Source of the DNA: Candidatus Saccharimonadota bacterium
GTDB taxonomy: Bacteria; Patescibacteriota; Gracilibacteria; BD1-5; UBA2023
Length of the DNA: 32,000 nt
NCBI GenBank assembly: GCA_042852035.1
Contig: BAAFHK010000001.1
Location: 240,001-272,000 of the forward strand
Reading direction: 5' to 3'
The notes beneath the pieces were generated by a model, which was not told the origin of the DNA, searched no databases, and saw only the letters and a program-made list of their open reading frames with translations. This document shows positions 8,962 through 26,125 of this stretch, in pieces (the stretch's first letter is position 1; each line of letters begins with the position of its first letter). Position numbers and translations under genes: made by a program.

Positions 8962-8989
8962 AAAAAAATCCACTAAGATTTGGATTTTT
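8962..8989 (-). terminator. Intrinsic terminator of the ATPase-Toprim gene
   Basis: 9-bp stem aaaaatcca / tggattttt with an 8-nt loop that overlaps the TAG stop. A T run follows on the minus strand. Confidence 0.7.
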
Positions 8990-10781
8990 CAGGAGGATTA
9001 CATATGAGTTTTATTTTGTCGAAAAGAGGACTAAAGTTTTTAAAGTATTCTATACCAAGAGTATCAATAATGATTCTACTAAAATGAGTTTTATCTCATT
9101 TAAATGTAATGATTTCTCATCATGGTGAGCATACTTTATTGTAGTGCAAATTATCAAAATCATCATTAATTCAATAAAACATCAGTTCAATAGGGAATAT
9201 TGTTTTGGATCAGAAATGTTGTCCAGAAGTCATATCAAAAAGTTGTCTGTTGATTTTTTGGGACTTATTTATTGGTAATAATAGAGCATAAAATCATGCA
9301 TCCTTTGCTTTATTTGATAAGCAAGTTTCAGGATTGGTATCGTGAGTTATGAAGTCAAGTCAGTTCCACTGATTATATCACTCTTCATCAAAATCAAATA
9401 AACCAATGACACAACTATTTTGAAAACAATTTGCTTTTTCGAGTGAGTATTTAACATCTTTTGCATTCTGTCATTTTGTTGGTTTTGGAATATAAAACGG
9501 CATCTTGACTCAAGGGTAAAGTTTACTCCAAGATTTTTCAAGTATTTCTTTATCAGTAAATCATTCAACAAATAATAATGGTTTTTCTTTATTGCTTAGT
9601 ATTTCCAATGTTTTATTATTCTCTTGTGTTAGTTCTCGTATTCTAATTTCCTGATTTCAAATTTTATCAAAAAATTCCTTATTGGCTATTCACAGTTCTT
9701 TATATTGTGTCTTTTGTACAGGAAGTATTCTTGGTTCATATCACTTTCGAAATACTTCATAGTAATTTGTTCATTCAGGGGCTAATGATATTGTAGTTGG
9801 TGAGTGAGTTACAACTATTACCATAATTCAATTATCTACAAAATATTGATTCAATACCTTGTAAAACATTTCAGTCAAAGATGGATTAAATGTCGCATCA
9901 AATTCATCTAGTAATAACAGCTTTATGTTATTTTTATCACGAGAATTGAGTGTTGAAAATATTAATGAAGTAATGACCTTTTCTCAATCAGATAAATCTG
10001 TTACTTCCATTCATTTTTTTTCATCAATAGTCCCATTGATAATTGGGTATATCCTTGGTTGTTCGATAATTCATGTAATTGATGTGTAGTTATCTTTAAA
10101 TCTATAGTCTATTTTAAGAAGTTTAAATAATTCATTAAGTTTCTTCCACGGGGGGAATCATAATTCATTTTGCAAGTCTGAGTCGCTTATAAGGACTCCT
10201 TGATCATATTTTTCCAATTTTAATTTAGTAAATTTATTTGCATATATAAGAAATGAATCTGCTACTATATTTGAAAAAATATCATCAGATTCCCAGATAA
10301 ACTCATCATCAATAGCTCATATTATCTCTTCTCTTTGGAGCAATCCTCCCATAAATCTACTCTCTCAAAATTTTTGAGTGAGTATCTCCTTTGCTTTTTT
10401 TGAAGATTTTTGGAAACTTTTTAATATCTGATGATTTTCATTAAGAAGGACTCAGTTTGTGTAGTGGCTCCAAACACTATTTTTATGATTTATGAAATTT
10501 TGTGGTTCCGCATTTCAGATATTGTTTATTTGCTGTATATTACTTTGAAGTGTTCGAAATTGTATATTTTTATAATTTATCGGTATGCCATCAATGTCTA
10601 TGCTTGTGGCAATATTTTTATTTGGGTCTTCGGGATATTGTCACTTAATTATTTGCATTAATTGTGATTTTCCACTTCCATTTACTCAAGAAATAATTAT
10701 TAAATTTCACTCTAAGCTTATCTCAAATCAACTTGGAAAGGATTTGTATTCTTCAAATAGTCTAATATTTAAAACTCCCAT
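8973..10781 (-). CDS. Fused ABC-type (AAA15/21-like) ATPase + Toprim/DUF4435-like nuclease; OLD-family or fused PARIS (AriA-AriB)-like defence candidate
   Basis: A 602-aa single frame of 1809 nt with many TGA=Gly. Motifs: Walker A IISGVNGSGKSQL, ABC signature-like LSDGEK, Walker B KLLLLDEFDATFNP, and H-loop VVTHSP. The C-terminal Toprim motifs are PLLFVEGFTDKEIL and GLFDFDEEG. It is the most AT-rich coding stretch in the window. Confidence 0.8.
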
Positions 10782-10852
10782 ATAAATCTTAATTAATATT
10801 TATACAAATTATATTTAAAGAGACTTCTCTTTCCAGCTTTTCCGATTTTAAA

Positions 10853-11479
10853 TTATTCTTTTACCTCACACACCCCACCCACACAATTCTGATTCTTGTG
10901 TTCTTTCATCCACTTCCGACGCACGAGCCAGCCATAGATCCGACAGCCGACACAGTATCAGGCGACAGATTCGAGCCACATAAAGGTGATACAGAGGATG
11001 CATGCAAAAAGGGTAGGATTCAGTGGTGTGACGATGAGTTCATGATTTCGGAGATTTTCAGCAGTTGTCATCCAGATTTTTCCAACGGTCTCGGCCTGTG
11101 GTCCAGCAGTAGGGGCCACATAGCCTCCGAGGATGAGTATGCAGTAGAGAGCAAATACTGAGAGGAAGAGTCCGATGCTCCATGCAAATCGTTTTTGTAC
11201 CGCACCAACCCAGATTTCTTTGCTCTTTTCGAGATTCATACGTACAAGAGATCCGAAGATGCTCCACTTTGGTCCGATGAATATCTTCATGATGAACTCG
11301 AGTATGACGATGCTCACGAGGACGAGGGGGATAGAGTATTCAGCCTTGAAGAGGACGAGGAAAAATGATGTCATCGTGAAGAGGAGCATGATGCCTGTTG
11401 AGATGCGGATTTCTCGTTCATCGACGAAACCATATTTATCGTGTTTTTCAGAGATGCCGTGAATGAAGTGTCAGTACAT
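10853..11479 (-). CDS. DUF4395 family membrane protein
   Basis: 208 aa: MYGHFIHGISEKHDKYGFVDEREIRISTGIMLLF..., with several TM segments. The C-terminal GYCVGCRIYGWL motif is reached only by reading TGA 10958-10960 as Gly. The stop is TAA 10853-10855. Confidence 0.8.
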
Positions 11480-11982: not shown

Positions 11983-12768
11983 TTAGTGATTCATTTGTCC
12001 CATGCCATTTCCTTGTCCACCACCACGACGATTTCCTGATCCTGTAGGTCCACGACCATCACCATTTCCTCAGCCTTGGGCTCCAAAGGTTTGGAGATTA
12101 TTGGACTTGAGGAGATCAGTCATTTTGTATTTGAGGGGGCCAGTGCTGTTTAGTTCGCTGGCCGTCATATAGCGAGCATAGTCGGTCGTGACAATATAAT
12201 TATTTTCTACCGCGAGACGAAGAAATGCTCGAAGGTGATTGAAACTGCCACCACCGATATTTTCGAACACTCGGCGGACATCCGTATCTTCGACGGTTTT
12301 ATATTCAGAGAGGAGATGATCTATGTCTCCAACTTCTACCATAACTCAAGCTTCGATAGCTTCTGTGAGGCTTGTATCAATCATCTTTTTCAGGGTTTCA
12401 TAGGTACCAGAGTAGCTGCCATAGTCAGTCGGACGATCGATACTACGAGCATCGAGGAGGCGTCCAACCTGTTCTGAATGTTTTTCTTCCGAACTCACGA
12501 TATTCATCACTTCGGTGAACTCGGGATATTTTGCCACCATGAGGGTGTAGATGTCTTCTGCGAGACGTTCTTCGGAATAGGCATCCTTGAGAATGTTTTC
12601 GACTATTTTTGGATCAGTAGTTTGAGGGTCGGGGGCTTGTTTTTGATTGTTTGAAGCCACTGTTTGTGTTGGAGTTTGAGTCGAACTTGGTACTTTATTT
12701 TCTATACTAGAAAGAGTACAAGAGCTCAGAATGCAAGCAGAGAGTGGGAGAATTAAGAGGGCATTCAT
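11983..12768 (-). CDS. DUF2202 (ferritin-like) lipoprotein with a Gly-rich C-terminal tail
   Basis: 261 aa. The lipobox is LPLSA-C. Motifs are EERLAEDIYTLMVAKY, SSEEKHSEQV and the diagnostic GGGSFNHLRAFLR. Two TGA=Gly join ORFs 12346-12768 and 12070-12342 and add the tail GGNGDGRGPTGSGNRRGGGQGNGMGQMNH. Confidence 0.85.
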
Positions 12769-12786
12769 ATGAAAAATGGTTAATGT

Positions 12787-12806
12787 ATATTACAAAATTG
12801 TAATAT
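12787..12806 (-). promoter_or_regulatory. Third copy of the operator (perfect 9-2-9 palindrome)
   Basis: ATATTACAA-AA-TTGTAATAT, located 19 nt upstream of the DUF2202 ATG. It has the same ATATTA...TAATAT arms as the trx and arsR sites. Confidence 0.55.
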
Positions 12807-13826: not shown

Positions 13827-14687
13827 TTATATGTATTTTTCCTGAAAGAGTGAATAGAGCTCGTGGAGATGATTTTTATCTGATGTACCAAAGATGATAC
13901 TTGATACGTGGGGTTCATGCATAAGAAATTCAAGTGCAAGTTCTTTTAGTGTTTTATTTTTTCTCTCAGCAATTATTTCATAGAGTTTACGATCTCGTAA
14001 AAACTGCTTGAGTCCCTGATTTCGAAAGAGCATATTCAGTGCATTTTCGTCTCGTTTTAATATTTCTGCCATACTTCTTTGTGTGAGTCACCCACGATAG
14101 AGCGGAGAATATGCCATAAATTCAATTGATTCATCGATATATGGGAAAATAGATTTTTCTACCCCTCGGTCGATAAGATTATAAAAATCTTGAATGACGG
14201 TAATGTTTTGTTCTTTGATTGAGAGAAATTGCTTGAGGAGATCTCATGAACAATTCGAGAGTCCATATTGGCGTATGAGTCATCTTTTGGTGAGCTCATT
14301 GAGGGTGTTGATAATTTGGTTGGGATTCTCAATTCTTTGTGGAATATGCAGGAGATAGGTGTCAATAAAGTCTGTCTTGAGTCGATTGAGGCTTTCGTTA
14401 AGTTGAGATTTTATGCCTTCTGAGCTCACATCATAGACGCTTCTTCCATTCACGATACTGAATCCGAACTTTGAGATGATTCGTATATCTTTGCGGACAG
14501 GGGAGAGGATTTCTCCGATAAAAGATTCACTCTTTCCATTCCCATAGATAGGGGCAGTATCATAGGATCGAATCCCAAGTGTAAAAGCTGTCTCAAGGAG
14601 TTCAGATACTTCCCCTTTGTTCATATCTCGAAAAGAAGGGAGTCCTCCGATTTGCCAACATCCGAGTATGAACTCCTTTTCTTTCAT
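13827..14687 (-). CDS. Aldo/keto reductase family oxidoreductase
   Basis: 286 aa joining ORFs 14280-14687 and 13827-14072 through three TGA=Gly. Sequence: MKEKEFILGCWQIGG ... SYDTAPIYGNGKSESFIGE ... IDTYLLH. Confidence 0.9.
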
Positions 14688-14698
14688 GCTAAGAGTCT

Positions 14699-14734
14699 AA
14701 AAAAATCCTCCCTTTTTACAAGGAGGATATTTTT
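14699..14734. terminator. Intrinsic terminator (bidirectional shape)
   Basis: 7-bp stem atcctcc / ggaggat with a 10-nt loop, flanked by A5 and T5 runs. It lies directly after the stop of the 517-aa gene. Confidence 0.75.
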
Positions 14735-16286
14735 ATTTTGCAGGTGGTTTTGGGATGTTCCCTTCAGGATACTTGTCCCTATAGGCAGCAACAGTTTTTT
14801 CTCAAATAATTCCATCAGCCTTTTGTTCTCATTTTCCGGGTTTTTTCTTGAATCAAAGTTCCTCTTGGAGTCGAATAACGGCATCAACTCATCAAATTTC
14901 ATTTCGAATCGTTCTTCATAGCGCAAGTATTTGATTTTTGTCTGTAAGATCCTTGAATCTTTCAAATTTATCTGCTAAAGGATGTCGTGTTGGTTTCTCT
15001 GGAGTTCTTTCTGCAGGGGCTGGCGGTTGTTGTTGAGGGTTCTGGTCGGTACTCGATTCGAGTTTTGCAAGTATCTTCTTGAGTCATTCTTCATTTAGGA
15101 TTTCAACTGCGGGACTTATTCAGAGTTTCGTACTAAATTCGCTCACGGCCTTTATGAGTTTTTGTGAGTAGGTATATTTACCATCTGGACCCTTATCAGG
15201 AAGTCATTCTCCAAATCATAATTTTCAGATATCTTCGAGAAACTTTTGTCATCCTTCACTGGCATAATTTATTGTTCCAGAGCTCAGATTGTATCGTCAA
15301 TTGGCTGGATTGAGCATATCTTTTAGAAGCGCTATTTTTTCCTTTTTATCGAGAGGTTTTTCCTTTCAGGTTTCGATTTTCTGTCAAAAATCTATTCCAA
15401 GAAGGGCTCAAAATATTTTGAGAATATCTCCAATTCCTTTAAAAATCTTTGAATCTGATTTAAGAAGATTATTTACGAATTCACCAAATTTTGCTCTATC
15501 GAAATTTGGAGGAAGTTGTTTTTTGAGTTGTTCTGCCCCTGCTTTTGGGTCGACGGTGTTAATTTTTGAAATATCAATCCCAGCTGTTGTAAGCTCTCCT
15601 TTTTCATTTGAAAGAGGGAGAATCTTCTCACCCTTGATGATATATTTCTTTCCATCCTTAAATGGATCGTCTCAGGCTCATTTTTTCCAGGCTGCAATAG
15701 CTGTTTTCGTTTTCTCAGATCCATTTTTTTCAAGAAATGCGATATCATCTTGAGTCTCCAGAGAAAAACCATTTTGTAGCATAGTTTCGATAAATGGTGT
15801 CACAACCTGCATGACTGTATTTTTTAAGAGCGAGTTATCGATTTTATCAAGACTTGTAAGAAGTTTTTTCACATCTGCCTTATTGAGCTTTCCGATTTTT
15901 TCACGTATTTGATCAGGGGATAAGTCTTTTATAGCATCGCTATCGAGAGTTCCGTCAGGTTTTATAATTCACTTTAGACTCTCTGATGGTGTATTCGTTG
16001 CTACAAGTGTTTTTTGTATGAGCTCAGCTGAAAATAGACGATTGTAGAGGTCAATTATTTTCTGCTCACGGGGAGTGAGTGGGCCTTTTTTTTGCGAGAG
16101 AGTTTCCCATGCCTTTCTTAAAGCCTCTTTTGTGGCATCACGTATTTCTTTAATTTTGTCAGGACTAGAAAGTTCCGTTGATATTTGATCGATATCTTCG
16201 GGCTTAATATCTGACTTACTGATCGCATCGAGAATTCTTTGGTTCTGCTGTTCGAGTCGAGATTGATCTATTCCTTCTGCTGCCAT
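14733..16286 (-). CDS. Hypothetical 517-aa protein with a C-terminal peptidoglycan-binding-like (PG_binding_1-type) motif
   Basis: I walked the frame codon by codon from 16286 to TAA 14733-14735. It carries more than 20 TGA=Gly and joins ORFs 15969-16286 and 15678-15872. The body is K/E/D-rich with a PQQQPPAPAERTPEKP linker. It ends VIRLQEELGFKKKPGKGEQKADGIIGEKTVAAYRDKY. No signal peptide is evident. Confidence 0.75.
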
Positions 16287-18910: not shown

Positions 18911-18985
18911 TCCTTCCCCTCTCTTTATGGGAGAGAAATTAAGGCTATGTTTCTCTAAAACTCTAATATCTTAGGAACGAAAATA

Positions 18986-19011
18986 AAATCTCCAGTTTAA
19001 TTTGGAGATTT
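18986..19011. terminator. Bidirectional intrinsic terminator
   Basis: 9-bp stem aaatctcca / tggagattt with an 8-nt loop. It lies between convergent rpmG and the 19016-19300 gene. Confidence 0.7.
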
Positions 19012-19015
19012 ATTT

Positions 19016-19300
19016 CTATATTTTTGCTTTTTCAGTAGAAAATGCTGGAAGATTCTCGAGAAACTGTTCAATTTCACTTTTTTTTGTATTCTGGAGGTCA
19101 GTATAGTATTCTTCTAGAGAAATAAGCCTCGCATCGAGAAATGCTCGCTCAGAATGAGTAAGAATGACTCGAGTGATTTCCTCGAACTGCATATTATACT
19201 GGAGAAGTTTTTTCACGAGCTTTTTGCTTACTTCTCGATCGTCCGTAGTTCCGAAGAGTTCACGAAGACGAGGTGATTCTTTACGAGTGCGAGGAGGCAT
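19016..19300 (-). CDS. Hypothetical 94-aa protein
   Basis: The first in-frame ATG (19300) gives MPPRTRKESPRLRELFGTTDDREVSKKLVKKLLQYNMQFEEITRVILTHSERAFLD... The open frame extends to 19402 but only with a TTG start. I recognise no family. Confidence 0.5.
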   Translation of the reverse strand: MPPRTRKESPRLRELFGTTDDREVSKKLVKKLLQYNMQFEEITRVILTHSERAFLDARLISLEEYYTDLQNTKKSEIEQFLENLPAFSTEKAKI

Positions 19301-19659
19301 TGGTATTTTGTATTTATTTATATTTTTATAGTAGTGAGGGAAGGGGTTCTTTCCTCGCTCGAGGCATGAATATATCCTACTCGATTTATAATTTTCTCGC
19401 AAATAGTTGCTCTTGATTTTTTTAATTTCTGTTTAAAAAAAGAAATCTTTTCACTCGAGTTCCTCAATATATTCATTTTCTTAAAGAAAAAGTTCTTTTG
19501 AGATTTTCTAAAATCTCCTATTCGGGAGATGTGCTCGGTAAAAAATAATTTCTGCTTGCTTTCTTATAATGTTTTCCTATAATCCGCTCGCATTTTTGGT
19601 CAAAGTGCTTTTTATATCCTTCTTATCGCTTGCGGTAAGATATAACCCATAGGATTCAT

Positions 19660-19944
19660 ATGAGAAAATACGAACTTATGATGATCGTAGATCCTGCTCT
19701 TACGGTAGCTGACAGAGATGCTCTTGTTACTGTAATAAAGTCAGAGCTTACAGATCACGGTGCGAAAATTGTTTCGCAAGCTCATCCAGGTGAGCAAAAG
19801 CTTGCATACCGTATTCACGGAAGTCAAGTTGGCTATTATCTATTATATACTCTTGAGAAAGAGGGAAATTTTGTTGATGCTTCAAACGCATTTAACCTTA
19901 AAAAGGATATCTGGCGTTACATGTTTACCCGTGTAGAAGAATAA
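19660..19944 (+). CDS. rpsF: 30S ribosomal protein S6
   Basis: 94 aa, intact: MRKYELMMIVDP... It is first in the canonical rpsF-ssb-rpsR order. Confidence 0.95.
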   Translation: MRKYELMMIVDPALTVADRDALVTVIKSELTDHGAKIVSQAHPGEQKLAYRIHGSQVGYYLLYTLEKEGNFVDASNAFNLKKDIWRYMFTRVEE

Positions 19945-19966
19945 TTTTTTCATCATCATTTTTACT

Positions 19967-20386
19967 ATGAGAACTATTAACAAAGTTATCCTTATTGGAA
20001 ATATTACAAAAGACCCTTTCGTAAAAACAACAAGTGCTGGTCCAGATAAAAAGATTGCTACTTTTACAGTTGCAACAAATCGCTACTATAAATCTCCAAA
20101 TGGAGAGGCTCTCTCTGAGGCTGAATACACAAATTGTGTTGCATGGGGGCCACTTGCGGATCAGGTTGAGAAATTTCTTGTCAAAGGAAAACTTGTTTAT
20201 ATTGAGGGAAGACTAAAGACGAGAATTATCGATAAAGAAGATGGCACAAAGCTTCATAAGACTGAAGTGGTTGTCGGACAACTTATCTTCCTTTCTAAAC
20301 GAGAAGACTTTGCTGACAATTGAGCTGATTCTGGTCCAGTTTCTGATGATTTTGATGACTTCTCTGATCTTGATGATAAATTCTAA
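19967..20386 (+). CDS. ssb: Single-stranded DNA-binding protein
   Basis: OB-fold N-terminus MRTINKVILIGNITKDPF. Reading TGA 20321-20323 as Gly restores the expected acidic C-terminal tail ...DDFDDFSDLDDKF before TAA 20384-20386. Confidence 0.95.
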
Positions 20387-20421
20387 AACTTTTTGATTGA
20401 TAATTTTATAACTCAAATTAT

Positions 20422-20727
20422 ATGACTACGAAAAAGAAAAAAGTCTGTCCAATCGATGCTGCTGGAATAAAGCAGATTGATTATAAGGATACAACTCTTC
20501 TTAAGCAATATCTTACCAAGTTTAATCGTATCGTTCCACGTTACTATTCTTGAGTATCTCTTGCGAACCAAAAAAAGCTTGCACAAGCTATAAAAAGAGC
20601 TCGATATATGGCACTTCTTCCATATGTGCTTGAGGTAAATCGCCCAAGCGAGATTTCTCTTCCATCCGCTTCTGTAACTCAATCACCAACTCCTGAGACT
20701 CTTGATGAGACAGCAGTAGCCGTCTAA
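20422..20727 (+). CDS. rpsR: 30S ribosomal protein S18
   Basis: 101 aa: ...IDYKDTTLLKQYLTKFNRIVPRYYSGVSLANQKKLAQAIKRARYMALLPY... There is one TGA=Gly. The stop is TAA 20725-20727. Confidence 0.95.
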
Positions 20728-20750
20728 TTACTCAGATTTCATGATATAAG

Positions 20751-20774
20751 ATTCCCATTCCAGTTGGGAATTTT
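20751..20774 (+). terminator. Intrinsic terminator after rpsR
   Basis: 7-bp stem attccca / tgggaat with a 7-nt loop, followed by TTTT. Confidence 0.65.
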
Positions 20775-20851
20775 ATAATGTCAATTTTATTTTATAGATG
20801 CGATTAGTCGGGTATAAAACACGAAGGAAACTGCTTTTTTAGAAAATTATA

Positions 20852-20880
20852 TTGACTTTCTCTCTTAGGACTGCTATCAT
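20852..20880 (+). promoter_or_regulatory. Sigma70-like promoter of the pilin-like gene
   Basis: TTGACT (20852-20857), a 17-nt spacer, then TATCAT (20875-20880). Confidence 0.45.
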
Positions 20881-20913
20881 AGAGGGGTCCATTTATTTCT
20901 TATTTTTCTTTCT

Positions 20914-21273
20914 ATGTCACTTACAAAGTCACTTTATGCGACTATTGCAACTCTTTTTGTTGCTGAGAATGCTCTTGCTGCTGGAGCAGACACAATGTTT
21001 GGTCTTACAACTAAGGCTTCTGGAACAAATATTACTGGAGCAAATGGTACAGCGTGGGATGCTATTTCTAATATTATTAAGCAACTCCTTACTCTCGTTT
21101 CGATTATTGCCGTGCTCTATGTGCTTTGGGCAGGTTTTCAGATCATGACAGCAGGTGGTGATGAGGAGAAGGTGAAGAGCGGTCGAAAGACAATTATCTA
21201 CGTTATCGTTGGTATCGTTGTTATGTGGCTTTCATTCTGGCTCGTTTCCCTTGTTATCACTTCTCTTACATAG
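20914..21273 (+). CDS. Small two-TM secreted/membrane protein, TrbC/VirB2-type pilin-like
   Basis: 119 aa, intact. It has a signal-like N-terminus (ATIATLFVAENALAAGA). The first hydrophobic helix is followed by MTAGGDEEKVKSGRKT, then a second helix. This layout matches VirB2/TrbC-type pilins as I recall them from CPR genomes. Confidence 0.65.
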   Translation: MSLTKSLYATIATLFVAENALAAGADTMFGLTTKASGTNITGANGTAWDAISNIIKQLLTLVSIIAVLYVLWAGFQIMTAGGDEEKVKSGRKTIIYVIVGIVVMWLSFWLVSLVITSLT

Positions 21274-21287
21274 TAGAAAAAAATTTG

Positions 21288-21315
21288 AAATCCCTCGAAA
21301 GAGGGATTTTTTTAT
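21288..21315 (+). terminator. Intrinsic terminator
   Basis: 9-bp stem aaatccctc / gagggattt with a GAAA loop, followed by a T run. Confidence 0.8.
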
Positions 21316-21365
21316 TGTCTTTTTCCTGATTTTTCCTATTATAGAGTGCATCTAAATGCAATACT

Positions 21366-24062
21366 ATGGCTTACGATCACTTACGGATAGAAAAAAAATG
21401 GCAGAAATTTTGGGAAGAAAATACCACTTTTTCGACTCCTACTATTTCTGAAAAGCCAAAAAAATATATTCTCGATATGTTTCCATATCCATCGGGGGCT
21501 GGGCTTCACGTTGGTCATCCGAAATGATATACTGCAACAGATATTGTATCTCGTTACTATCATGCAAAGTGATATAACGTTCTTCATACCATGGGTTGGG
21601 ATGCTTTTGGATTGCCCGCTGAAAACTACGCCATAAAGACGGGTACACATCCTGCTATTACTACAGCACAAAATGTCACCACTTTTCGCTCCCAGATGAA
21701 GTCTCTCGGATTCTCATATGATTGGAGTCGTGAAATAGATACAACCGATCCAGAATATTATAAATGGACTCAATGGATTTTTCTTGAACTCTTCAAGCGA
21801 TGACTTGCTTACGAACAAGATCTTCCTATTAACTATTGTCCAAGTTGTAAAACTTGACTGGCAAATGAAGAGGTTCTCGCTGATAATACCTGTGATAGAT
21901 GTGGGACTCGCGTAGAACGTCGCCCAATACGACAATGGGTACTCAAAATCACTGAGTATGCAGATAGGCTTATAGAAGATCTCGAGAGTCTTGATTGGCC
22001 AGAAGGAATCAAAGAAATGCAGAGAAATTGGATAGGGAAAAGTGAGGGATGTGAGTTTGAGATGAAAAAATCTGACGATCAAACAAAAAGTATTCGCGTC
22101 TATACAACCCGTGTAGATACAGTCTTTGGGATGACGTATGCTGTACTTGCTCCAGATCATCCAAGAGTTAGAGAATTTATTACTGAAGAACAGAGACAAA
22201 TTTGTGAAAAATATATTGAATGAGTTAAGTGAAAATCTGATCTTGATCGAACAAATGAAGGTAAAAGTAAAACGGGGGTATTTACCGGATCTTATGTGAT
22301 AAATCCTTATAATGGTGAATCAGTTCCCCTTTGGATTGCTGATTTTGTTCTTGGTCATTATTGAACGGGTGCTCTTATGGCAGTTCCTGCTCACGATGAA
22401 CGAGATAGGGAATTTGCTCATTTATATTGACTTCCTATTGTTCAAAGCGTTCAAACTTCAGTTCCATTTGATGGTTGATCCTGGAAAAAGGAATATGGAG
22501 AAGATGGTATAAGCTTGGCTCTTAATCTTCCCTCAAGCGAGTCTCGAAAAGCTCTTACTGAAAAAGCAGAAAAAGAAGGCTTCTGAGAAAAAAAAGTCAA
22601 TTATAAACTTCGTGACTGGCTCTTTTCTCGTCAGAGATATTGGGGTGAGCCAATACCACTCATCCATATTGCATGAGATGATTTTGATGCACTTCCTCGT
22701 ATTGCTGACATTTCAGAGGCAAAAGACATGAATATTGCTTATATTCTTGATAAGCGAGGGACAGATAAGCGGTGTAAAAATTGTACTTGTGGTGATGTTG
22801 GTTGTGTAAAGCTTATTATCGGTGGAAAATCCTACTCAAGAGTTTATGACGGAATCTACTCAAAGATTCTTATCGATCCAAATCTTCCTGTTACGCTTCC
22901 AGAAGTTGAAAAATATGAGCCAGCAGGAGATGGTCAATCACCGCTTGCGAATGTTCCGGATTGGGTAAATATTAAACTTGCTGATAATCTCAGTGGAAAA
23001 AGAGAAACCAATACGATGCCACAGTGGTGAGGAAGTTGTTGGTACTACCTGCGATATATGGATCCGAGAAATAAAGAGGTTCTCGCAAATAAAGAGGCTC
23101 TTGATTATTGGGGAATTGTAGACGAGTATGTGGGTGGCGCTGAACATGCTGTTCTTCATCTTCTTTATGCTCGTTTCTGGCATAAGGTTCTCTTCGATGC
23201 TTGAGTTGTTCCGAAAAATGAACCATTCCAAAAGCTTACAAATGTCTGAATGATTCTTGCCTATGCTTATGAGCGAGAAGATGGAGGCCTCGTAGCGGTT
23301 GATCTTGTTATAGAGAAAGATGGAAAATTCTATGAAAAAGAAACACAAAAAGAGGTGAAGCAAGTGGTGGCAAAGATGAGTAAATCTCTCAAAAATGTAG
23401 TCAACCCAAATGATATCGTCAATGAATATGGAGCTGATACCCTTAGACTCTATGAGATGAGTATGGCTTGATTTACCGATACGGCTCCATGGAATCCTGA
23501 GGCGATTATCTGAGTTCGAAGATTTCTTGATCGAGTTTATGCGAGTTTCACAGAGTGAAAGAATCAGGCTCGTGATGATATGAAAGCGATGAAACTCCTT
23601 CATAAAACGGTGAAGAAGGTAGGAGAAGATATTGAGGGATATAAATTCAATACTGCAATTTCAGCACTCATGATCCTCCTCAATGAATGAATCCCTTCCG
23701 ATCTCGATTTTCGAAAGGAGTGGAGAGAAAAATTTCTCATACTTCTTCATCCATTTGCACCACATATTGCTGAAGAGCTTTGGATGTTTGATCATATGGG
23801 AGAGCGACCGATTTCTATTTCCACCTTTGCATGGCCAAATTTTGATGAATTTATGCTTGTGGATGATGAAGTGACTATTGCGGTTCAGGTGAATGGAAAA
23901 CTTCGAGGCACTCTTACTTGTTTTAATGGAGTAGCACAAGAAGAAGTCTCGGCACTCGCTCATGCAGATGAAAGTATAGCAAAGTGGCTTCTTGGAAAGA
24001 TTCTCGTCAAAGAAATTTTTATTCCAAATAAAATGCTCTCAATCGTTGTACGAGACGAGTAG
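21366..24062 (+). CDS. leuS: Leucine--tRNA ligase
   Basis: 898 aa in one frame (2697 nt) with many TGA=Gly. It has the HVGH (HIGH) motif, [10 protein letters not shown] (KMSKS), and the conserved blocks [17 protein letters not shown] and [11 protein letters not shown]. The stop is TAG 24060-24062. Confidence 0.97.
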
Positions 24063-24075
24063 GATGATTATCTTT

Positions 24076-24103
24076 TTGACAATTTATGTAAAAAGAATAG
24101 GAT
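24076..24103 (+). promoter_or_regulatory. Sigma70-like promoter of the RNA candidate
   Basis: TTGACA (24076-24081), a 16-nt spacer, then TAGGAT (24098-24103), directly after the leuS stop. Confidence 0.4.
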
Positions 24104-24109
24104 TCCCAA

Positions 24110-24436
24110 ATCCACGCAGTGCTCTGCTGTCGTGGATGAGGAGCTGAACCCTACCGTTCAGAGAAAAAGAGGTGTTTCTTGGCTACTACCGATACCCCCG
24201 ATACCCGAAAGGGTACTACCGCAACTCAACCTCAGCGTCGGCGTGTCCCCAAAGGTCATGCCGCACTCCAGCACGACCTGAATCCTTGTTCACGTCGTGA
24301 CTCGGACCAAACCCCGATCTTCTGGGTTCAGGCATTCCATCATCCGGGTGCATTACGGAGGGATTGATTCGCTACGGCGAGCATCGGCTTTCTCGGAAGC
24401 TTACCTTCATTCTTTTGGCCGCCTTCGGGCGGCTTT
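24110..24436 (+). ncRNA. Candidate ~330-nt structured ncRNA, class not assigned
   Basis: A GC-enriched, ORF-poor segment bracketed by a promoter and terminators. The hairpins I could draw are:
- 24111-24136 (tccacg/cgtgga)
- 24144-24161 (ctgaac/gttcag)
- 24202-24215 with a GAAA tetraloop
- 24272-24299 (cacgac..tgaa/ttca..gtcgtg)
- 24310-24328 (aaccc/gggtt)
- 24418-24433 (gccgcc-UUCG-ggcggc), followed by UUU. Confidence 0.5.
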
Positions 24437-24447
24437 AACATTTAAAC

Positions 24448-24476
24448 AAAAAAACCTTCAGTAGAGAAGGTTTTTT
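24448..24476 (+). terminator. Intrinsic terminator (second of a tandem pair)
   Basis: A7, then the stem aaccttc / gaaggtt with a 6-nt loop, then T6. Confidence 0.75.
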
Positions 24477-24600
24477 GATTACTTTATAAATTACTATTAT
24501 AAATTCGTTTTGAAGTGTCAACTTCCTCTTATAGTAAAGATATTACGATGACACCTTATATAGTTTCATGAACGCCAAGAGAAAAAATGGAGAAAAAGTT

Positions 24601-24628
24601 TTGACAAATGTTTCTAAATACATACATT
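24601..24628 (+). promoter_or_regulatory. Candidate promoter upstream of the high-GC ORF
   Basis: TTGACA (24601-24606), a 16-nt spacer, then TACATT (24623-24628). It lies in AT-rich sequence just outside the compositional boundary. Confidence 0.35.
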
Positions 24629-24734
24629 AAGAAAATCCAGTTTGATTCAGCTCAGGCTGATCCAACTGGTGTCACCGCTCGTAGGGTGAGAAACCCCGAG
24701 TATCAACTGTCCCAATGGTCAAGAGGAGAACCCA

Positions 24735-25184
24735 ATGACCCGTACCCGAATGAACCTGGCGGCTCTGGCCGCACTCGCATCCTGCGCCGGCAACGCGACC
24801 GCCCACGTGCGTACCAAGTTCGACGTCGACACCGATCCCAAGAAGGGCATCTGCGCCATCAGCGATGGCACCGACGGCGCGATCGGCGGCGGCACCGGCG
24901 TGGTCAGCACCGAAGGCGGCGAGAACAGCAATGGCACCGGCGTGGTGAACCAGGCTGGCACCGACGGCAGCGCGATCGACGGCAACCAGCAGCAGATGCA
25001 GCAGGCCGGCGCCGCGAGCACCCAGGAAGGCGATGGCCGCACGTACGACGCCAGCGCGCAGCAGCAGGCCGATGTGAGCCGCGAAGGCGATGGCAACCAG
25101 CAGCAGGCCGAGATCCCGGTGGACCGTTCCGACACCCAGCAGGGCTGATGTCGAGGTGAAGGCAGGAGTGTGGTGGAAAGATAA
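24735..25184 (+). CDS. Compositionally foreign lipoprotein, low-complexity G/T/D/Q-rich (standard-code end 25148; code 25 end 25184)
   Basis: GAGGAG lies 6 nt upstream of the ATG. The signal peptide plus lipobox is MTRTRMNLAALAALAS-C. Third codon positions are almost all G/C. Internal repeats are GTGVV x2, EGDG x2 and NQQQ x2. There is no internal TGA. The terminal TGA 25146-25148 would be read as Gly here, adding GCRGEGRSVVER before TAA 25182-25184. The overlapping ORFs in other frames and strands look like typical high-GC shadows. Confidence 0.6.
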
Positions 25185-25205
25185 GTTCACGATCCACCTC
25201 CTGCC
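25161..25205 (+). other. GC-rich hairpin downstream of the foreign ORF
   Basis: The arms ggcaggag(t)gtgg and ccacctcctgcc form 12 bp with one bulge and a 20-nt loop. No U tract follows. Confidence 0.5.
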
Positions 25206-25309
25206 CCCCCAATACCAAAATAAAGAAAATCGATACAAGTTGATGTAAGTTGATGCATTTCGAAAGAATCTTATCTTAGGATTTTTCCGAAATGGAGTCT
25301 CTTCACGAC

Positions 25310-25346
25310 AAAAAGAAAGGAGCGCCCCTTCCGGGAGCGCTCTTTC
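25310..25346 (-). terminator. Strong GC-rich intrinsic terminator for the minus-strand operon
   Basis: Stem ggagcgcccc-UUCC-ggg(a)gcgctc. On the minus strand it is followed by tttctttttg. Confidence 0.75.
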
Positions 25347-25358
25347 AAATTGTAATTT

Positions 25359-26099
25359 TTATAATGGTTTCAATTGAGCTTTTCTTATGCCAAGTTGCTC
25401 TGTGAAATTTCTTATCACTCCAGCATCAAGTGGTGTTTGAATGAGGGTGTTTCTGCTATCAGGTGAGGCATACCTCATGGCTGGTATTGCTCAGGAATAT
25501 GACGCAAGAATGGTAGGAAGTTCTCTCCTAAGTGCATCTCTATCCTTGAGGCTTCAATTTTTGATAGCCTCTTCGAGATGATTTGTGAGAGTAAGAAGTG
25601 CCACTCATTCAACATAGAGAATAATATGGGGAATTCTCATTTGCCGCCTTCATACGTATACCTCGTGCGACCATTTTCAATGATTTATTACCTTCTCATC
25701 GAGTCATCTTTCATTCATAGTGAAGTCAACTGATATATAGCGAACTCAGTTTCCGGTAGTTGCCTTAAGAATAGCGTCAGTATGGTTACGAACATCATCT
25801 ATAATACTACTCAGCCACATTTCATAAGAGACAATATTGTCAGATTTTGCTGCAATAAGCGCCCGAATTACTTGAATAGCTACCCACTCTGGAATTCGCT
25901 GATTTTTTATAATATAGGGTCAGCGCTTGTGTTTTATATCATCTAGTGCGTTATTTACTGCAAATGTTGCAAGTCCTTCTAGATCCATTGGTGAGACCCT
26001 TCTTTCCTGTCATCCTCATGCTGTGATTACTTTTCAGAGGTGTGGAAACATATCAACCCTTCATTGTTCCGCTCCAATTCATAGGAAGCGATTATCCAT
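25359..26099 (-). CDS. Hypothetical 246-aa protein (no family recognised)
   Basis: A single frame of 741 nt with about 14 TGA=Gly: MDNRFLGIGAEQGRVDMFPHLGKVITAGGGQERRVSPMDLEGLATFAVNNALDDIKHKRG... An in-frame TAA just upstream fixes the start. It lies 27 nt downstream of the cofD-like gene. Confidence 0.7.
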
Positions 26100-26125
26100 A
26101 CAAAGTTAGTTATCGAAATAAGTTC

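What the first reader, a model, noticed from the sequence alone, without database searches (positions are those of the whole stretch)
24629..25231. Very high-GC, Shine-Dalgarno-led lipoprotein gene with a TGA terminator embedded in a low-GC, TGA=Gly genome
Base composition flips between about 24650 and 25210, while both flanks are ordinary AT-rich sequence. The ORF 24735-25148 has these features:
- Its third codon positions are almost all G/C.
- It has a canonical GAGGAG 6 nt before the ATG, which I do not see in front of the native genes here.
- It has a lipoprotein signal (LAALAS-C) and a repetitive G/T/D/Q/N-rich body.
- It has no internal TGA, and its only TGA is the terminator.

The host code should read that TGA as Gly, giving a 12-residue extension to TAA 25182-25184. 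The extension runs into a 12-bp GC hairpin (25161-25205). A 9-nt direct repeat AAGAAAATC (24629-24637 and 25223-25231) brackets the segment. A native-looking TTGACA-16-TACATT promoter sits just outside it.

My inference is recent horizontal capture of a gene from a high-GC, standard-code bacterium. Described members of code-25 lineages are epibionts or predators of other bacteria, so a host or prey donor is plausible.
Basis: partly seen in the sequence, partly recalled or inferred. Interest (0 to 1): 0.8.

Follow-up and report, generated by a model that had tools for sequence, protein, structure and literature searches.

The report
Foreign high-GC lipoprotein gene in Gracilibacterium
A 573-base, 65 % GC segment carrying a complete standard-code lipoprotein gene sits just after a native promoter in a 38 % GC bacterium that reads TGA as glycine; it is most likely a very recent horizontal acquisition, although no donor or homologue could be found.

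Summary
The host reads TGA as Gly. The segment 24638-25210 is 65.1 % GC, against 38.0 ± 4.4 % (maximum 48 %) for equal-sized windows elsewhere.

The ORF 24735-25148 behaves as real coding DNA from a 60-70 % GC, standard-code bacterium:
- GC1/2/3 is .67/.53/.87.
- Gly is GGC in 21 of 21 codons, where native genes use 7 % GGC and 34 % TGA.
- It is the only long ORF in the window with a Shine-Dalgarno site.
- It has a lipobox.
- It shows no excess RNA structure.

An independent assembly (Logan, run DRR350542) reproduces window 23302-25118 at 100 % identity, across the left junction. A chimera is therefore unlikely. The right junction is unconfirmed.

The protein has no homologue in 1.84 or 5.8 billion proteins, so the donor and the host/prey idea remain untested.

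Two further findings:
- The promoter module TTTTGACAA-N25-AAATCCA also occurs 525 nt upstream, in front of a candidate structured RNA.
- A related Gracilibacterium (LeuRS 67 % identical) has an unrelated GC-rich, SD-led, TGA-ended element of almost the same length between the same boundaries (AATC … hairpin-N5-AATAYCAAAATAAA). This suggests a recurrent insertion slot.

Verdict: a real, recent horizontal-transfer islet. It is of moderate interest, and more if the slot proves general.

The parts
24599..24639 (+). Native promoter module TTTTGACAA-N25-AAATCCA. The -35 TTGACA is at 24601-24606, the -10 TACATT at 24623-24628, and the presumed transcription start lies in AAATCCA at 24633-24639.
   Evidence: Promoter scan. 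The same 16 specified bases with identical spacing occur at 24074-24114 and nowhere else. None of 100 shuffles gave a match.
24617..24637 (.). Left copy of the imperfect direct repeat AATACATACATTAAGAAAATC. The perfect 9-mer AAGAAAATC is at 24629-24637.
   Evidence: the repeat finder family D6, 81 % over 21 nt. The 9-mer occurs only twice in the window. Empirical P = 0.007.
24638..25210 (+). High-GC foreign segment of 573 nt at 65.1 % GC. It comprises a 97-nt 5' leader, SD, ORF, stop, hairpin and CCCCC.
   Evidence: Composition. No excess RNA structure, z = -0.69. No DNA or protein match anywhere. Window 23302-25118 is reproduced 100 % in Logan contig L163.
24637..24670 (+). Stem-loop at the 5' end of the segment: CCAGTTTGATTCAGC / GCTGATCCAACTGG.
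   Evidence: Minimum-free-energy folds.
24723..24728 (+). Shine-Dalgarno GAGGAG, 6 nt before the ATG.
   Evidence: Sequence. It is the only SD+ATG opening a real long ORF in the window. Presumed native starts show no SD.
24735..25148 (+). ORF of 137 codons plus TGA (25146-25148). It encodes a lipoprotein precursor: the signal peptide and lipobox LASC occupy 24735-24785, and the mature part is low-complexity, G/T/D/Q/N-rich and repetitive.
   Evidence: Translation. GC1/2/3 of .67/.53/.87. Codon table with GGC 21/21, CAG 15/15 and ACC 12/13. Internal repeats. AF2 mean pLDDT of 44, too low to interpret. ORF-only fold z = +2.57.
25146..25184 (+). Code-25 read-through: TGA read as Gly plus CRGEGRSVVER, ending at TAA 25182-25184.
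   Evidence: Translation. TGA = Gly verified on LeuRS.
25161..25205 (+). GC-rich hairpin GGCAGGAG-TGT-GGTGGA … TCCACC-TCCTGCC, followed by CCCCC and with no U-tract.
   Evidence: Minimum-free-energy fold. Not called as an intrinsic terminator.
25211..25231 (.). Right copy of the imperfect direct repeat. Its first 14 nt, AATACCAAAATAAA, recur exactly 5 nt after the terminal hairpin of the GC-rich element in relative L001.
   Evidence: The motif is unique among 163 loci apart from L001 and its duplicate L081.
25232..25358 (+). Native AT-rich, strongly structured tail: a long hairpin plus a bidirectional terminator at 25320-25342. It may be the body of a small native RNA gene that the insertion cut off from its promoter.
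   Evidence: Fold z = -5.43. Terminator scan.
24074..24476 (+). Context, unit A: the same promoter module, followed by a candidate structured RNA of about 370 nt (GC about 55 %) that ends in the intrinsic terminator 24449-24476.
   Evidence: no ORF, no periodicity. (z = -4.70). (no Rfam family).

Best explanation
The segment 24638-25210 is a recently acquired piece of foreign DNA. It is one complete gene unit (5' leader, Shine-Dalgarno site, lipoprotein ORF, TGA stop, GC hairpin) from a bacterium with roughly 60-70 % GC and the standard genetic code.

It is inserted in the variable leuS-cofD intergenic gap of a code-25 Gracilibacterium, at or within a few bases of the transcription start of a strong native sigma-70-type promoter.

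Inferred consequences in the recipient:
- It would be transcribed from that promoter.
- If translated, the TGA would be read as Gly, giving a 12-residue tail ending at TAA 25182-25184.
- Translation is probably inefficient. The recipient shows no SD before its own presumed gene starts, and nearly every codon of the ORF is rare for it.
- So it may be a neutral passenger or a newly co-opted surface lipoprotein.

The insertion mechanism is unresolved. Candidates are integration at microhomology or site-specific recombination at a slot that is also occupied in a relative.

Shown here: the compositional foreignness, the coding character, the expression signals, the left junction, and the absence from relatives. 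Inferred: the transfer itself, the donor type, expression, and the mechanism.
For: - The island is 0.651 GC, 6 sd above the rest of the window.
- GC3 is .87 against .21-.35 in native genes. GC3 versus GC2 gives p = 7e-10.
- All 21 Gly codons are GGC, while native genes use 34 % TGA and 7 % GGC. P(no TGA) = 1.5e-4.
- Codon usage fits 62-70 % GC genomes best among the fetched loci.
- It is the only genuine SD-led long ORF in the window.
- The lipobox is present.
- There is no excess RNA structure: z = -0.69 for the island and +2.57 for the ORF.
- TGA = Gly in the recipient.
- The flanking repeat has P = 0.007.
- Independent Logan contig L163 equals window 23302-25118 at 100 % and crosses the left junction.
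- The syntenic gap is empty in L020 and in the available part of L082, and holds a different sequence in L001.
- Horizontal transfer into Patescibacteria is well documented (PMC12455944).
- Standard-code DNA with TGA stops followed by back-up stops is tolerated in Gracilibacteria phages (PMC10746230).
Against: - No homologue or donor was found in 5.8 billion or 1.84 billion proteins, Pfam, NCBIfam, PHROGs, plasmids, phages or viral contigs. Transfer therefore rests on composition and signals only.
- The right junction was not recovered from an independent assembly.
- L163 probably derives from the same read set as the window.
- The only available relatives are distant (at most 73 % LeuRS identity), so 'recent' cannot be dated by presence or absence within a species.
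- The boundaries shared with L001 suggest something more organised than a random insertion.
Confidence: 0.65

Rival explanations
1. The island is a cassette in a conserved capture or expression slot. In this model Gracilibacteria of this lineage keep a defined site between leuS and cofD: promoter, start motif AATC, then AATAYCAAAATAAA. Hairpin-ended, SD-led single-ORF cassettes of about 575-580 nt are inserted or exchanged there by a site-specific mechanism. That mechanism could be integron-like, or like hairpin-dependent single-strand transposition. This refines the transfer reading rather than contradicting it.
For: - L001 has an unrelated GC-rich element of 580 nt (573 nt here) with matching features. 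It begins right after AATC, 5 nt downstream of a -10 hexamer, and starts with a stem-loop. It carries GAGGAGG-N6-ATG and a 152-codon ORF ending in TGA, followed by a GC hairpin. Exactly 5 nt later comes AATATCAAAATAAA, a 13/14 match to the window.
- That motif occurs nowhere else in 163 loci.
- The L001 ORF is also an orphan. It is also the only SD-led long ORF in an SD-less genome.
- The promoter module is duplicated in the window.
Against: - There are only two examples, and the motifs are short, AT-rich and were chosen after the fact.
- The window has no recombinase or transposase in 32 kb.
- There are no attC core sites and no terminal inverted repeats.
- The L001 body has weak codon periodicity (.64/.53/.67) and strong RNA structure (z = -5.75). 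It may be a structured RNA rather than a gene.
- L020 and L082 show neither an occupied nor an empty slot.
Confidence: 0.2
2. Assembly or library artefact: a chimeric contig in which a fragment of a co-occurring high-GC organism was spliced into Gracilibacteria sequence.
For: The sequence comes from a metagenome. The right junction is not independently confirmed. Logan contig L163 stops inside the island at 25118.
Against: - The fragment is internal, with native DNA on both sides.
- It is exactly one gene unit, with sharp ends and a flanking repeat.
- A second assembler (Logan) gives the same left junction at 100 % identity.
- No long shared k-mer exists at the junctions that could cause a false join in a de Bruijn graph.
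Confidence: 0.04
3. A long-resident native gene, or a locally generated sequence. In this reading the odd composition comes from in-situ expansion of GC-rich trinucleotide-type repeats (GGC, CAG, ACC) or from selection, and not from transfer.
For: The distal two-thirds of the ORF is repetitive, with 24-34-nt units at 71-79 % identity and CAG runs. No donor was found. The locus in L001 also carries trinucleotide repeats, (TTC)n and CTG runs.
Against: - The non-repetitive first 40 codons also have GC3 of about 0.83, by my own count on the sequence.
- The leader and the 3' hairpin are GC-rich too.
- The SD and the TGA stop are foreign to this genome.
- There is not one TGA-Gly among 21 Gly codons.
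Confidence: 0.05
4. A GC-rich structured non-coding RNA, the usual reason for GC islands in AT-rich genomes. The ORF would then be incidental.
For: The island is promoter-driven and flanked by structured RNA candidates: unit A upstream and the tail downstream, z = -4.7 and -5.4. All six frames are open across the island, so ORF length alone proves nothing.
Against: - Fold z is -0.69 for the island and +2.57 for the ORF.
- Three-base periodicity is strong.
- SD, ATG and lipobox are all present.
- No Rfam family matches, even at E ≤ 1.
Confidence: 0.02

Closest known systems
Compositionally atypical horizontally acquired genes ('genomic islets', in the Lawrence-Ochman amelioration framework)
   Same: Sharp GC and codon-usage discontinuity, a single orphan gene, an intergenic hot spot that varies between relatives, and short flanking repeats.
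   Different: The donor and recipient use different genetic codes, so the stop codon becomes a sense codon. The recipient shows no SD sites before its own genes. No donor homologue is known. Orphan genes in bacteria are usually AT-rich, and this one is 65 % GC.
Integron gene cassettes (Pc promoter - attI - promoterless ORF - attC hairpin)
   Same: A promoterless single ORF with its own SD, ending in an imperfect hairpin. It is inserted just downstream of a resident promoter, has orphan or secreted-protein cargo, and has composition unlike its host. A different cargo occupies the same slot in a relative.
   Different: There are no RYYYAAC/GTTRRRY cores, no integrase in 32 kb, and only one cassette rather than an array.
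IS200/IS605-type hairpin-ended elements and their non-autonomous derivatives (PATEs)
   Same: Subterminal hairpins at both ends, no terminal inverted repeats, and insertion immediately 3' of a short specific sequence (AATC in both genomes).
   Different: No tnpA or tnpB is present. The cargo is an unrelated ORF. The ends share no sequence between the two examples. This comparison rests on my recollection of the family and was not tested beyond the repeat scans.
Code-11-compatible phages of Gracilibacteria and Absconditabacteria (PMC10746230)
   Same: Standard-code DNA inside TGA = Gly hosts, with no in-frame TGA and a TGA stop followed closely by a second stop codon (here TAA, 12 codons later).
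   Different: There are no phage genes and no PHROG or viral-contig match. The element is a single 573-nt gene unit in the chromosome.
The PTD-repeat surface protein shared between a Gracilibacterium and co-occurring Colwellia (PMC6851277)
   Same: A Gracilibacterium carrying a repetitive, atypically coded extracellular or surface protein that resembles one from a likely partner bacterium. Repeats there also broke the assembly.
   Different: In that case only a repeat motif is shared and the gene is otherwise native. Here the whole gene unit, including its expression signals, is foreign and no partner sequence is known.

Membership tests
Bacterial lipoprotein precursor (PROSITE PS51257-type lipobox) | Positively charged N-terminus, a hydrophobic stretch, then [LVI][ASTVI][GAS]-C with the Cys between residues 15 and 35. 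| tested here: met
   MTRTRMN-LAALAALAS-C17 has R3 and R5, no charged residue in positions 7-12, and the lipobox L-A-S-C. The pattern rule was applied by hand from memory. No SignalP-type predictor was available.
Bacterial lipoprotein precursor (PROSITE PS51257-type lipobox) | Processing by Lgt/LspA in the organism that carries the gene. | not testable with these tools
   No lgt or lspA gene lies in the window. A native protein (11983-12789, minus strand) begins MNALLILPLSAC…, which suggests that lipoproteins exist in the recipient. This is inference only.
Horizontally acquired gene | Composition and codon usage deviate from the resident genome. | tested here: met
Horizontally acquired gene | Patchy presence: absent from the syntenic site in relatives. 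| tested here: met
   Synteny Obg…LeuRS…CofD is conserved. The gene is absent in L001, L020 and L082. These relatives are distant, at 59-73 % LeuRS identity.
Horizontally acquired gene | An identifiable donor lineage or phylogenetic incongruence. | tested here: not met
   Zero homologues.
Integron gene cassette | An attC site with R''/R' cores (RYYYAAC … GTTRRRY) and an intI integrase nearby. | tested here: not met
   A regex scan of 24561-25300 on both strands found none. No recombinase domain occurs in the window's ORFs.
IS / MITE transposable element | Terminal inverted repeats plus a target-site duplication. | tested here: inconclusive
   A 9-nt perfect direct repeat is present. There are no terminal inverted repeats and no transposase.
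Structured non-coding RNA | Folding energy well below shuffled controls, or a match to a curated family. | tested here: not met
   z = -0.69 and +2.57. No Rfam hit.
Intrinsic (Rho-independent) terminator | A GC-rich hairpin followed by a U-tract. | tested here: not met
   The hairpin 25161-25205 is present but is followed by CCCCCAATACC. The scan did not call it.
Genetic code 25 recipient (TGA = Gly) | In-frame TGA at positions where standard-code homologues have conserved Gly. | tested here: met
   Open reading frames of at least 150 codons total 52 kb when TGA is sense, against 9.6 kb under the standard code. TGA columns in LeuRS align to Gly in 610 of 1310 residues, 8 of 11 conserved columns are Gly, and none is Trp.

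The most novel reading that the evidence does not exclude
This Gracilibacteria lineage may maintain a dedicated slot between leuS and cofD. The slot would consist of a strong promoter, a conserved start motif (AATC) and a conserved downstream motif (AATAYCAAAATAAA). It would repeatedly receive different foreign, hairpin-ended, SD-led, TGA-terminated single-gene cassettes of about 575-580 nt. That would be an integrase-less, integron-like gene-capture and expression platform in a recoded epibiont, possibly sampling surface proteins of its partner bacteria.

A more extreme form is also not excluded. The signals are all of the standard-code type: a consensus sigma-70 promoter, an SD, GC-type codons and a TGA stop. 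The cassette might therefore be meant to be expressed in the partner cell rather than in the epibiont.
Probability: 0.15. Interest if true: 0.85.

Novelty: new member of a known kind. Interest (0 to 1): 0.45.

Why it matters
**Gene flow across a code boundary.** Recoded genomes (TGA = Gly) are often thought to be partly insulated from gene flow. This appears to be an essentially unameliorated gene from a standard-code, high-GC bacterium sitting behind a native promoter in such a genome.

If so, it is a natural test case for what happens to foreign stops, ribosome-binding sites and codon usage after a cross-code transfer. It may also point to the organism's partner or prey.

**The possible slot.** If the shared boundaries with the relative reflect a real insertion slot, it would be a previously undescribed way for very small epibiotic bacteria to capture and express foreign genes.

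Tried and rejected
**Searches that found nothing for the island or its ORF**
- Rfam on the whole window at gathering thresholds, and on 23900-25500 at E ≤ 1. Nothing meaningful.
- tRNA/tmRNA scan: none.
- blastn (distant mode) and tblastn against plasmids and phages: no match.
- Word-indexed search of 5.8 billion proteins and exhaustive phmmer of 1.84 billion representatives with the 137-aa ORF: no hits.
- Pfam, NCBIfam and PHROGs: nothing.
- Viral contigs: nothing.
- AF2 single-sequence model: mean pLDDT 44, too low to interpret, so I ran no fold search.

**Attempts to confirm the right junction**
- Exact look-ups of eight ORF products found nothing on record.
- A concatenated query of all nearby ORFs also found nothing.

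**Comparisons with the L001 element**
- Sequence or six-frame similarity between the window island and the L001 island: none.
- nhmmer/blastn of unit A, the island and the tail against all 161 loci fetched by then: nothing significant.

**Other checks**
- The metagenome scan with the LeuRS C-terminus gave only one close relative (L082, 73 %), with just 500 nt downstream.
- attC cores, terminal inverted repeats and dif-like symmetry: not found (and inspection by eye).
- A search for an empty slot in L002, L005, L020 and L082: none.
- The run accession DRR350542 was not found in the literature. A link to a Japanese activated-sludge size-fraction study (PMC9530733, DRA013859) is only a guess.

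**Ideas rejected**
- A synthetic gene optimised for E. coli. Lys is AAG in 3 of 3 codons, and GCC/GAC are preferred, which does not fit E. coli optimisation.
Full report
**The recipient genome.** Open reading frames of at least 150 codons total 9.6 kb under the standard code and 52 kb if TGA is sense. In LeuRS (21345-24062, plus strand) the in-frame TGAs align mostly with Gly in standard-code homologues. That is 610 of 1310 aligned residues, 8 of 11 conserved columns are Gly, and none is Trp. The genome therefore uses code 25.

The nearest public relatives of LeuRS are all Gracilibacteria or Patescibacteria:
- L001, isolate GFS_7187, 67 % identity
- L082, 73 % over the C-terminal 311 residues
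- L020, 59 %
- L005, 58 %
- L002, 57 %

The window is ordinary chromosome: GcpE, peptidase U32, Obg, S6, SSB, a T4SS-pilin-like gene, LeuRS, CofD, an SPFH protein and HrcA. The gene order Obg…LeuRS…CofD…SPFH is conserved in L001 and L020.

**The observation.** All parts of it hold.
- GC rises to 0.65-0.70 between about 24650 and 25200.
- The block 24638-25210 is 0.651 GC. All other 570-nt windows have mean 0.380, sd 0.044 and maximum 0.482. The boundaries are sharp, within about 10 nt.
- The ORF 24735-25148 has GC1/2/3 of .67/.53/.87, while native genes have GC3 of .21-.35. The periodicity is significant, with GC3 versus GC2 at p = 7e-10.
- Codon choice is extreme: Gly GGC 21/21, Gln CAG 15/15, Thr ACC 12/13. 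Native genes encode Gly with TGA 34 % and GGC 7 % of the time, so 21 Gly without a TGA has P = 1.5e-4.
- GAGGAG lies 6 nt before the ATG. It is the only SD+ATG in the window that opens a genuine long ORF.
- I took the first in-frame ATG of 22 long code-25 ORFs as presumed native starts. Twenty follow AT-rich sequence with no SD-like motif. The exceptions are a GGAGG too far upstream and GGAGGA before an ATG at codon 300.
- The product starts MTRTRMNLAALAALAS-C, which satisfies the lipobox rule.
- Under code 25 the TGA at 25146-25148 reads through for 12 residues to TAA at 25182-25184.
- The hairpin 25161-25205 is in the minimum-free-energy fold. It has no U-tract.
- The flanking AAGAAAATC occurs only at these two places in the window. 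It extends to 21 nt at 81 % identity. A repeat of at least 9 nt between two native 40-nt windows 590 nt apart has empirical P = 0.007.
- TTGACA-16-TACATT lies at 24601-24628.

**Coding DNA or structured RNA?** GC-rich islands in AT-rich genomes are usually structured RNAs, so I tested that.
- The island folds no better than shuffled controls, z = -0.69.
- The ORF alone folds worse than shuffles, z = +2.57.
- No Rfam family matches.

Together with the periodicity, the SD, the ATG and the lipobox, this shows that the sequence is, or recently was, a protein-coding gene shaped by a high-GC genome. Its synonymous codon choice fits fetched genomes of 62-70 % GC best. That set gives no taxonomic resolution.

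**Real or artefact?** The same strain is present in the Logan assembly of run DRR350542.
- Contig L162 equals window 18926-22499.
- Contig L163 equals window 23302-25118 at 100 % identity.

L163 runs from leuS through the upstream RNA candidate, the promoter and the left junction, and 480 nt into the island. A second assembler therefore reconstructs the left junction. The insert is internal, is exactly one gene unit, and carries a flanking repeat. I rate a chimera at about 4 %. I could not recover the right junction from any independent record.

**Where does it come from?** Nothing similar exists in any of these:
- the 5.8-billion-protein index
- an exhaustive phmmer of 1.84 billion representatives
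- Pfam, NCBIfam and PHROGs
- plasmids and phages, at DNA or protein level
- viral contigs

The AF2 single-sequence model has mean pLDDT 44, too low to interpret. The mature part is low-complexity and repetitive. Donor identity, and the attractive idea that the donor is the host or prey, remain untested. The literature gives context only. Horizontal transfer into Patescibacteria is common (PMC12455944). Gracilibacteria tolerate standard-code phage DNA whose TGA stops are backed up by nearby stops (PMC10746230). One Gracilibacterium shares a surface-protein repeat with a co-occurring Colwellia (PMC6851277).

**The locus in relatives.** The leuS-cofD gap is variable.
- L020 has only a small minus-strand ORF.
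- L082 shows a terminator and AT-rich sequence in the 500 nt available.
- L001 has a native-looking 172-codon ORF followed by a GC-rich island at about 14220-14799.

The L001 island deserves attention. Its sequence is unrelated to the window's, at DNA level and in all six frames, but its architecture is parallel.
- It begins immediately after AATC, 5 nt downstream of a -10-like hexamer, and starts with a stem-loop.
- It carries GAGGAGG-N6-ATG. This is the only SD-led long ORF in L001, whose native genes also lack SD.
- Its ORF has 152 codons and ends in TGA. The product is an orphan.
- A GC hairpin follows. Exactly 5 nt after the hairpin comes AATATCAAAATAAA, against AATACCAAAATAAA at the same offset in the window.
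- The bodies are 580 and 573 nt long.
- The 14-mer occurs nowhere else in the 163 fetched loci.

Allowing for post-hoc choice of short AT-rich motifs, I put the chance probability of the shared 3' boundary at roughly 1e-3 to 1e-2. That is suggestive, not proven.

Against a simple 'second foreign gene' reading, the L001 body has three awkward properties:
- Its periodicity is weak, .64/.53/.67.
- Its GC3 is not far from native L001 genes, which have .46-.58.
- It shows strong excess RNA structure: z = -5.75 for the whole element and -3.25 for the ORF.

Its nature is therefore unresolved.

**The promoter.** The module TTTTGACAA-N25-AAATCCA, with the -10 hexamer at the same offset, occurs twice in the window, at 24074-24114 and 24599-24639. 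It occurs nowhere else even with three mismatches, and none of 100 shuffles gave an exact match.
- The first copy drives a GC-55 % region of about 370 nt. That region has no ORF or periodicity, is strongly structured with z = -4.70, ends in an intrinsic terminator, and has no Rfam family. It is a candidate novel RNA gene.
- The second copy drives the island.
- The native sequence after the island (25232-25358) is itself strongly structured, z = -5.43.

One reading is that the island landed at the start site of a small native RNA gene. The left copy of the flanking repeat overlaps the conserved start motif. The right copy overlaps the motif shared with L001. The repeat may therefore reflect the structure of a recombination or target site rather than a classical target-site duplication. 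I found no recombinase or transposase in the window, no attC cores and no terminal inverted repeats.

**Mechanism I commit to.** This is a very recent horizontal insertion of a complete foreign gene unit at a variable intergenic hot spot, placed behind a strong native promoter (confidence 0.65).
- Transcription from that promoter is likely but inferred.
- Translation is uncertain. The recipient shows no SD before its own presumed gene starts, and nearly all codons of the ORF are rare for it.
- Any product would carry the 12-residue read-through tail.

The main alternative, at about 0.2, is not really exclusive of the first. It is that the site is a recurrent slot filled by hairpin-ended cassettes through a site-specific process.

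**Assessment.** As a horizontally acquired orphan gene this is a new member of a known kind. Its special features are:
- the crossing of a genetic-code boundary;
- the pristine foreign expression signals;
- the precise placement at a conserved promoter/start module;
- the parallel element in a relative.

Interest is 0.45. It would rise sharply if a survey shows that the slot is general.

Noticed in passing
window 24074-24476 (+): Candidate novel structured RNA gene immediately 3' of leuS. It has the promoter TTGACA-16-TAGGAT, about 370 nt at 55 % GC, no ORF or codon periodicity, and fold z = -4.70. It ends in a clean intrinsic terminator (24449-24476). There is no Rfam match and no tRNA or tmRNA call.
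   Followed up: partly
window 24074-24114 and 24599-24639 (+): Two copies of the promoter/start-site module TTTTGACAA-N25-AAATCCA with identical geometry, 525 nt apart, each followed at once by a 5' stem-loop. None of 100 shuffles gave a match. This may define a class of strongly expressed RNA genes in this organism.
   Followed up: partly
L001 14168-14220: A run of about ten TTC units lies between a TTGACT -35 box and the -10-like CAATAT/TAGAAT in front of the GC-rich element. The present spacing is too long for a sigma-70 promoter, and loss of about five units would restore 16-17 nt. This may be a phase-variable promoter.
   Followed up: no
L001 14220-14950: A GC-rich 580-nt element (fold z = -5.75) followed by a 160-nt structured tail (z = -6.8) that ends in the terminator GGGCCCTTCGGGGCCCTTTTTT. 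No Rfam family matches. Its 152-codon SD-led ORF is an orphan that is also assembled independently in a Logan contig (L081).
   Followed up: partly
window and L001, upstream of presumed native gene starts: Presumed native gene starts in both genomes have no Shine-Dalgarno site. Many carry a TAAC/CTAAC(C)-like motif 8-20 nt before the ATG, for example …ctaaccaaccaaaat ATG and …cgataactaactttgt ATG. This may be an alternative initiation or promoter signal.
   Followed up: no
window 8973-10799 (-), within the 28-31 % GC stretch 9001-11000: A 602-aa protein with AAA_21 / SMC_N / ABC ATPase hits (AbiEii- or OLD-like ATPase) lies in a region clearly more AT-rich than its surroundings. It may be a defence gene on a separate, AT-rich islet.
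   Followed up: no
window 25359-26105 (-): A 246-aa gene between the island and cofD has native composition and many TGA-Gly codons. It has no Pfam, NCBIfam or PHROG family, no homologue in a concatenated protein query that included it, and no counterpart in L001 or L020. It is a lineage-specific orphan in the same variable gap.
   Followed up: partly
window 20914-21273 (+) (= L162 1989-2348): A small gene just upstream of leuS has a T4SS_pilin hit (PF18895) and a faint TrbC hit. This is relevant to DNA exchange or host contact in Patescibacteria.
   Followed up: no
L001 14960-15140: Repeated, partly palindromic units (…GACAGATTCTCCTGAC[GT]GAGAATGACA…) lie between the structured tail and cofD. 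Only weak microRNA-like Rfam noise matches them.
   Followed up: no
L163 end (window 25118): The independent Logan contig breaks inside the repetitive part of the ORF, just after the second CAGCAGCAGGCCGA unit. This could reflect low coverage, or repeat-number polymorphism in the population.
   Followed up: no
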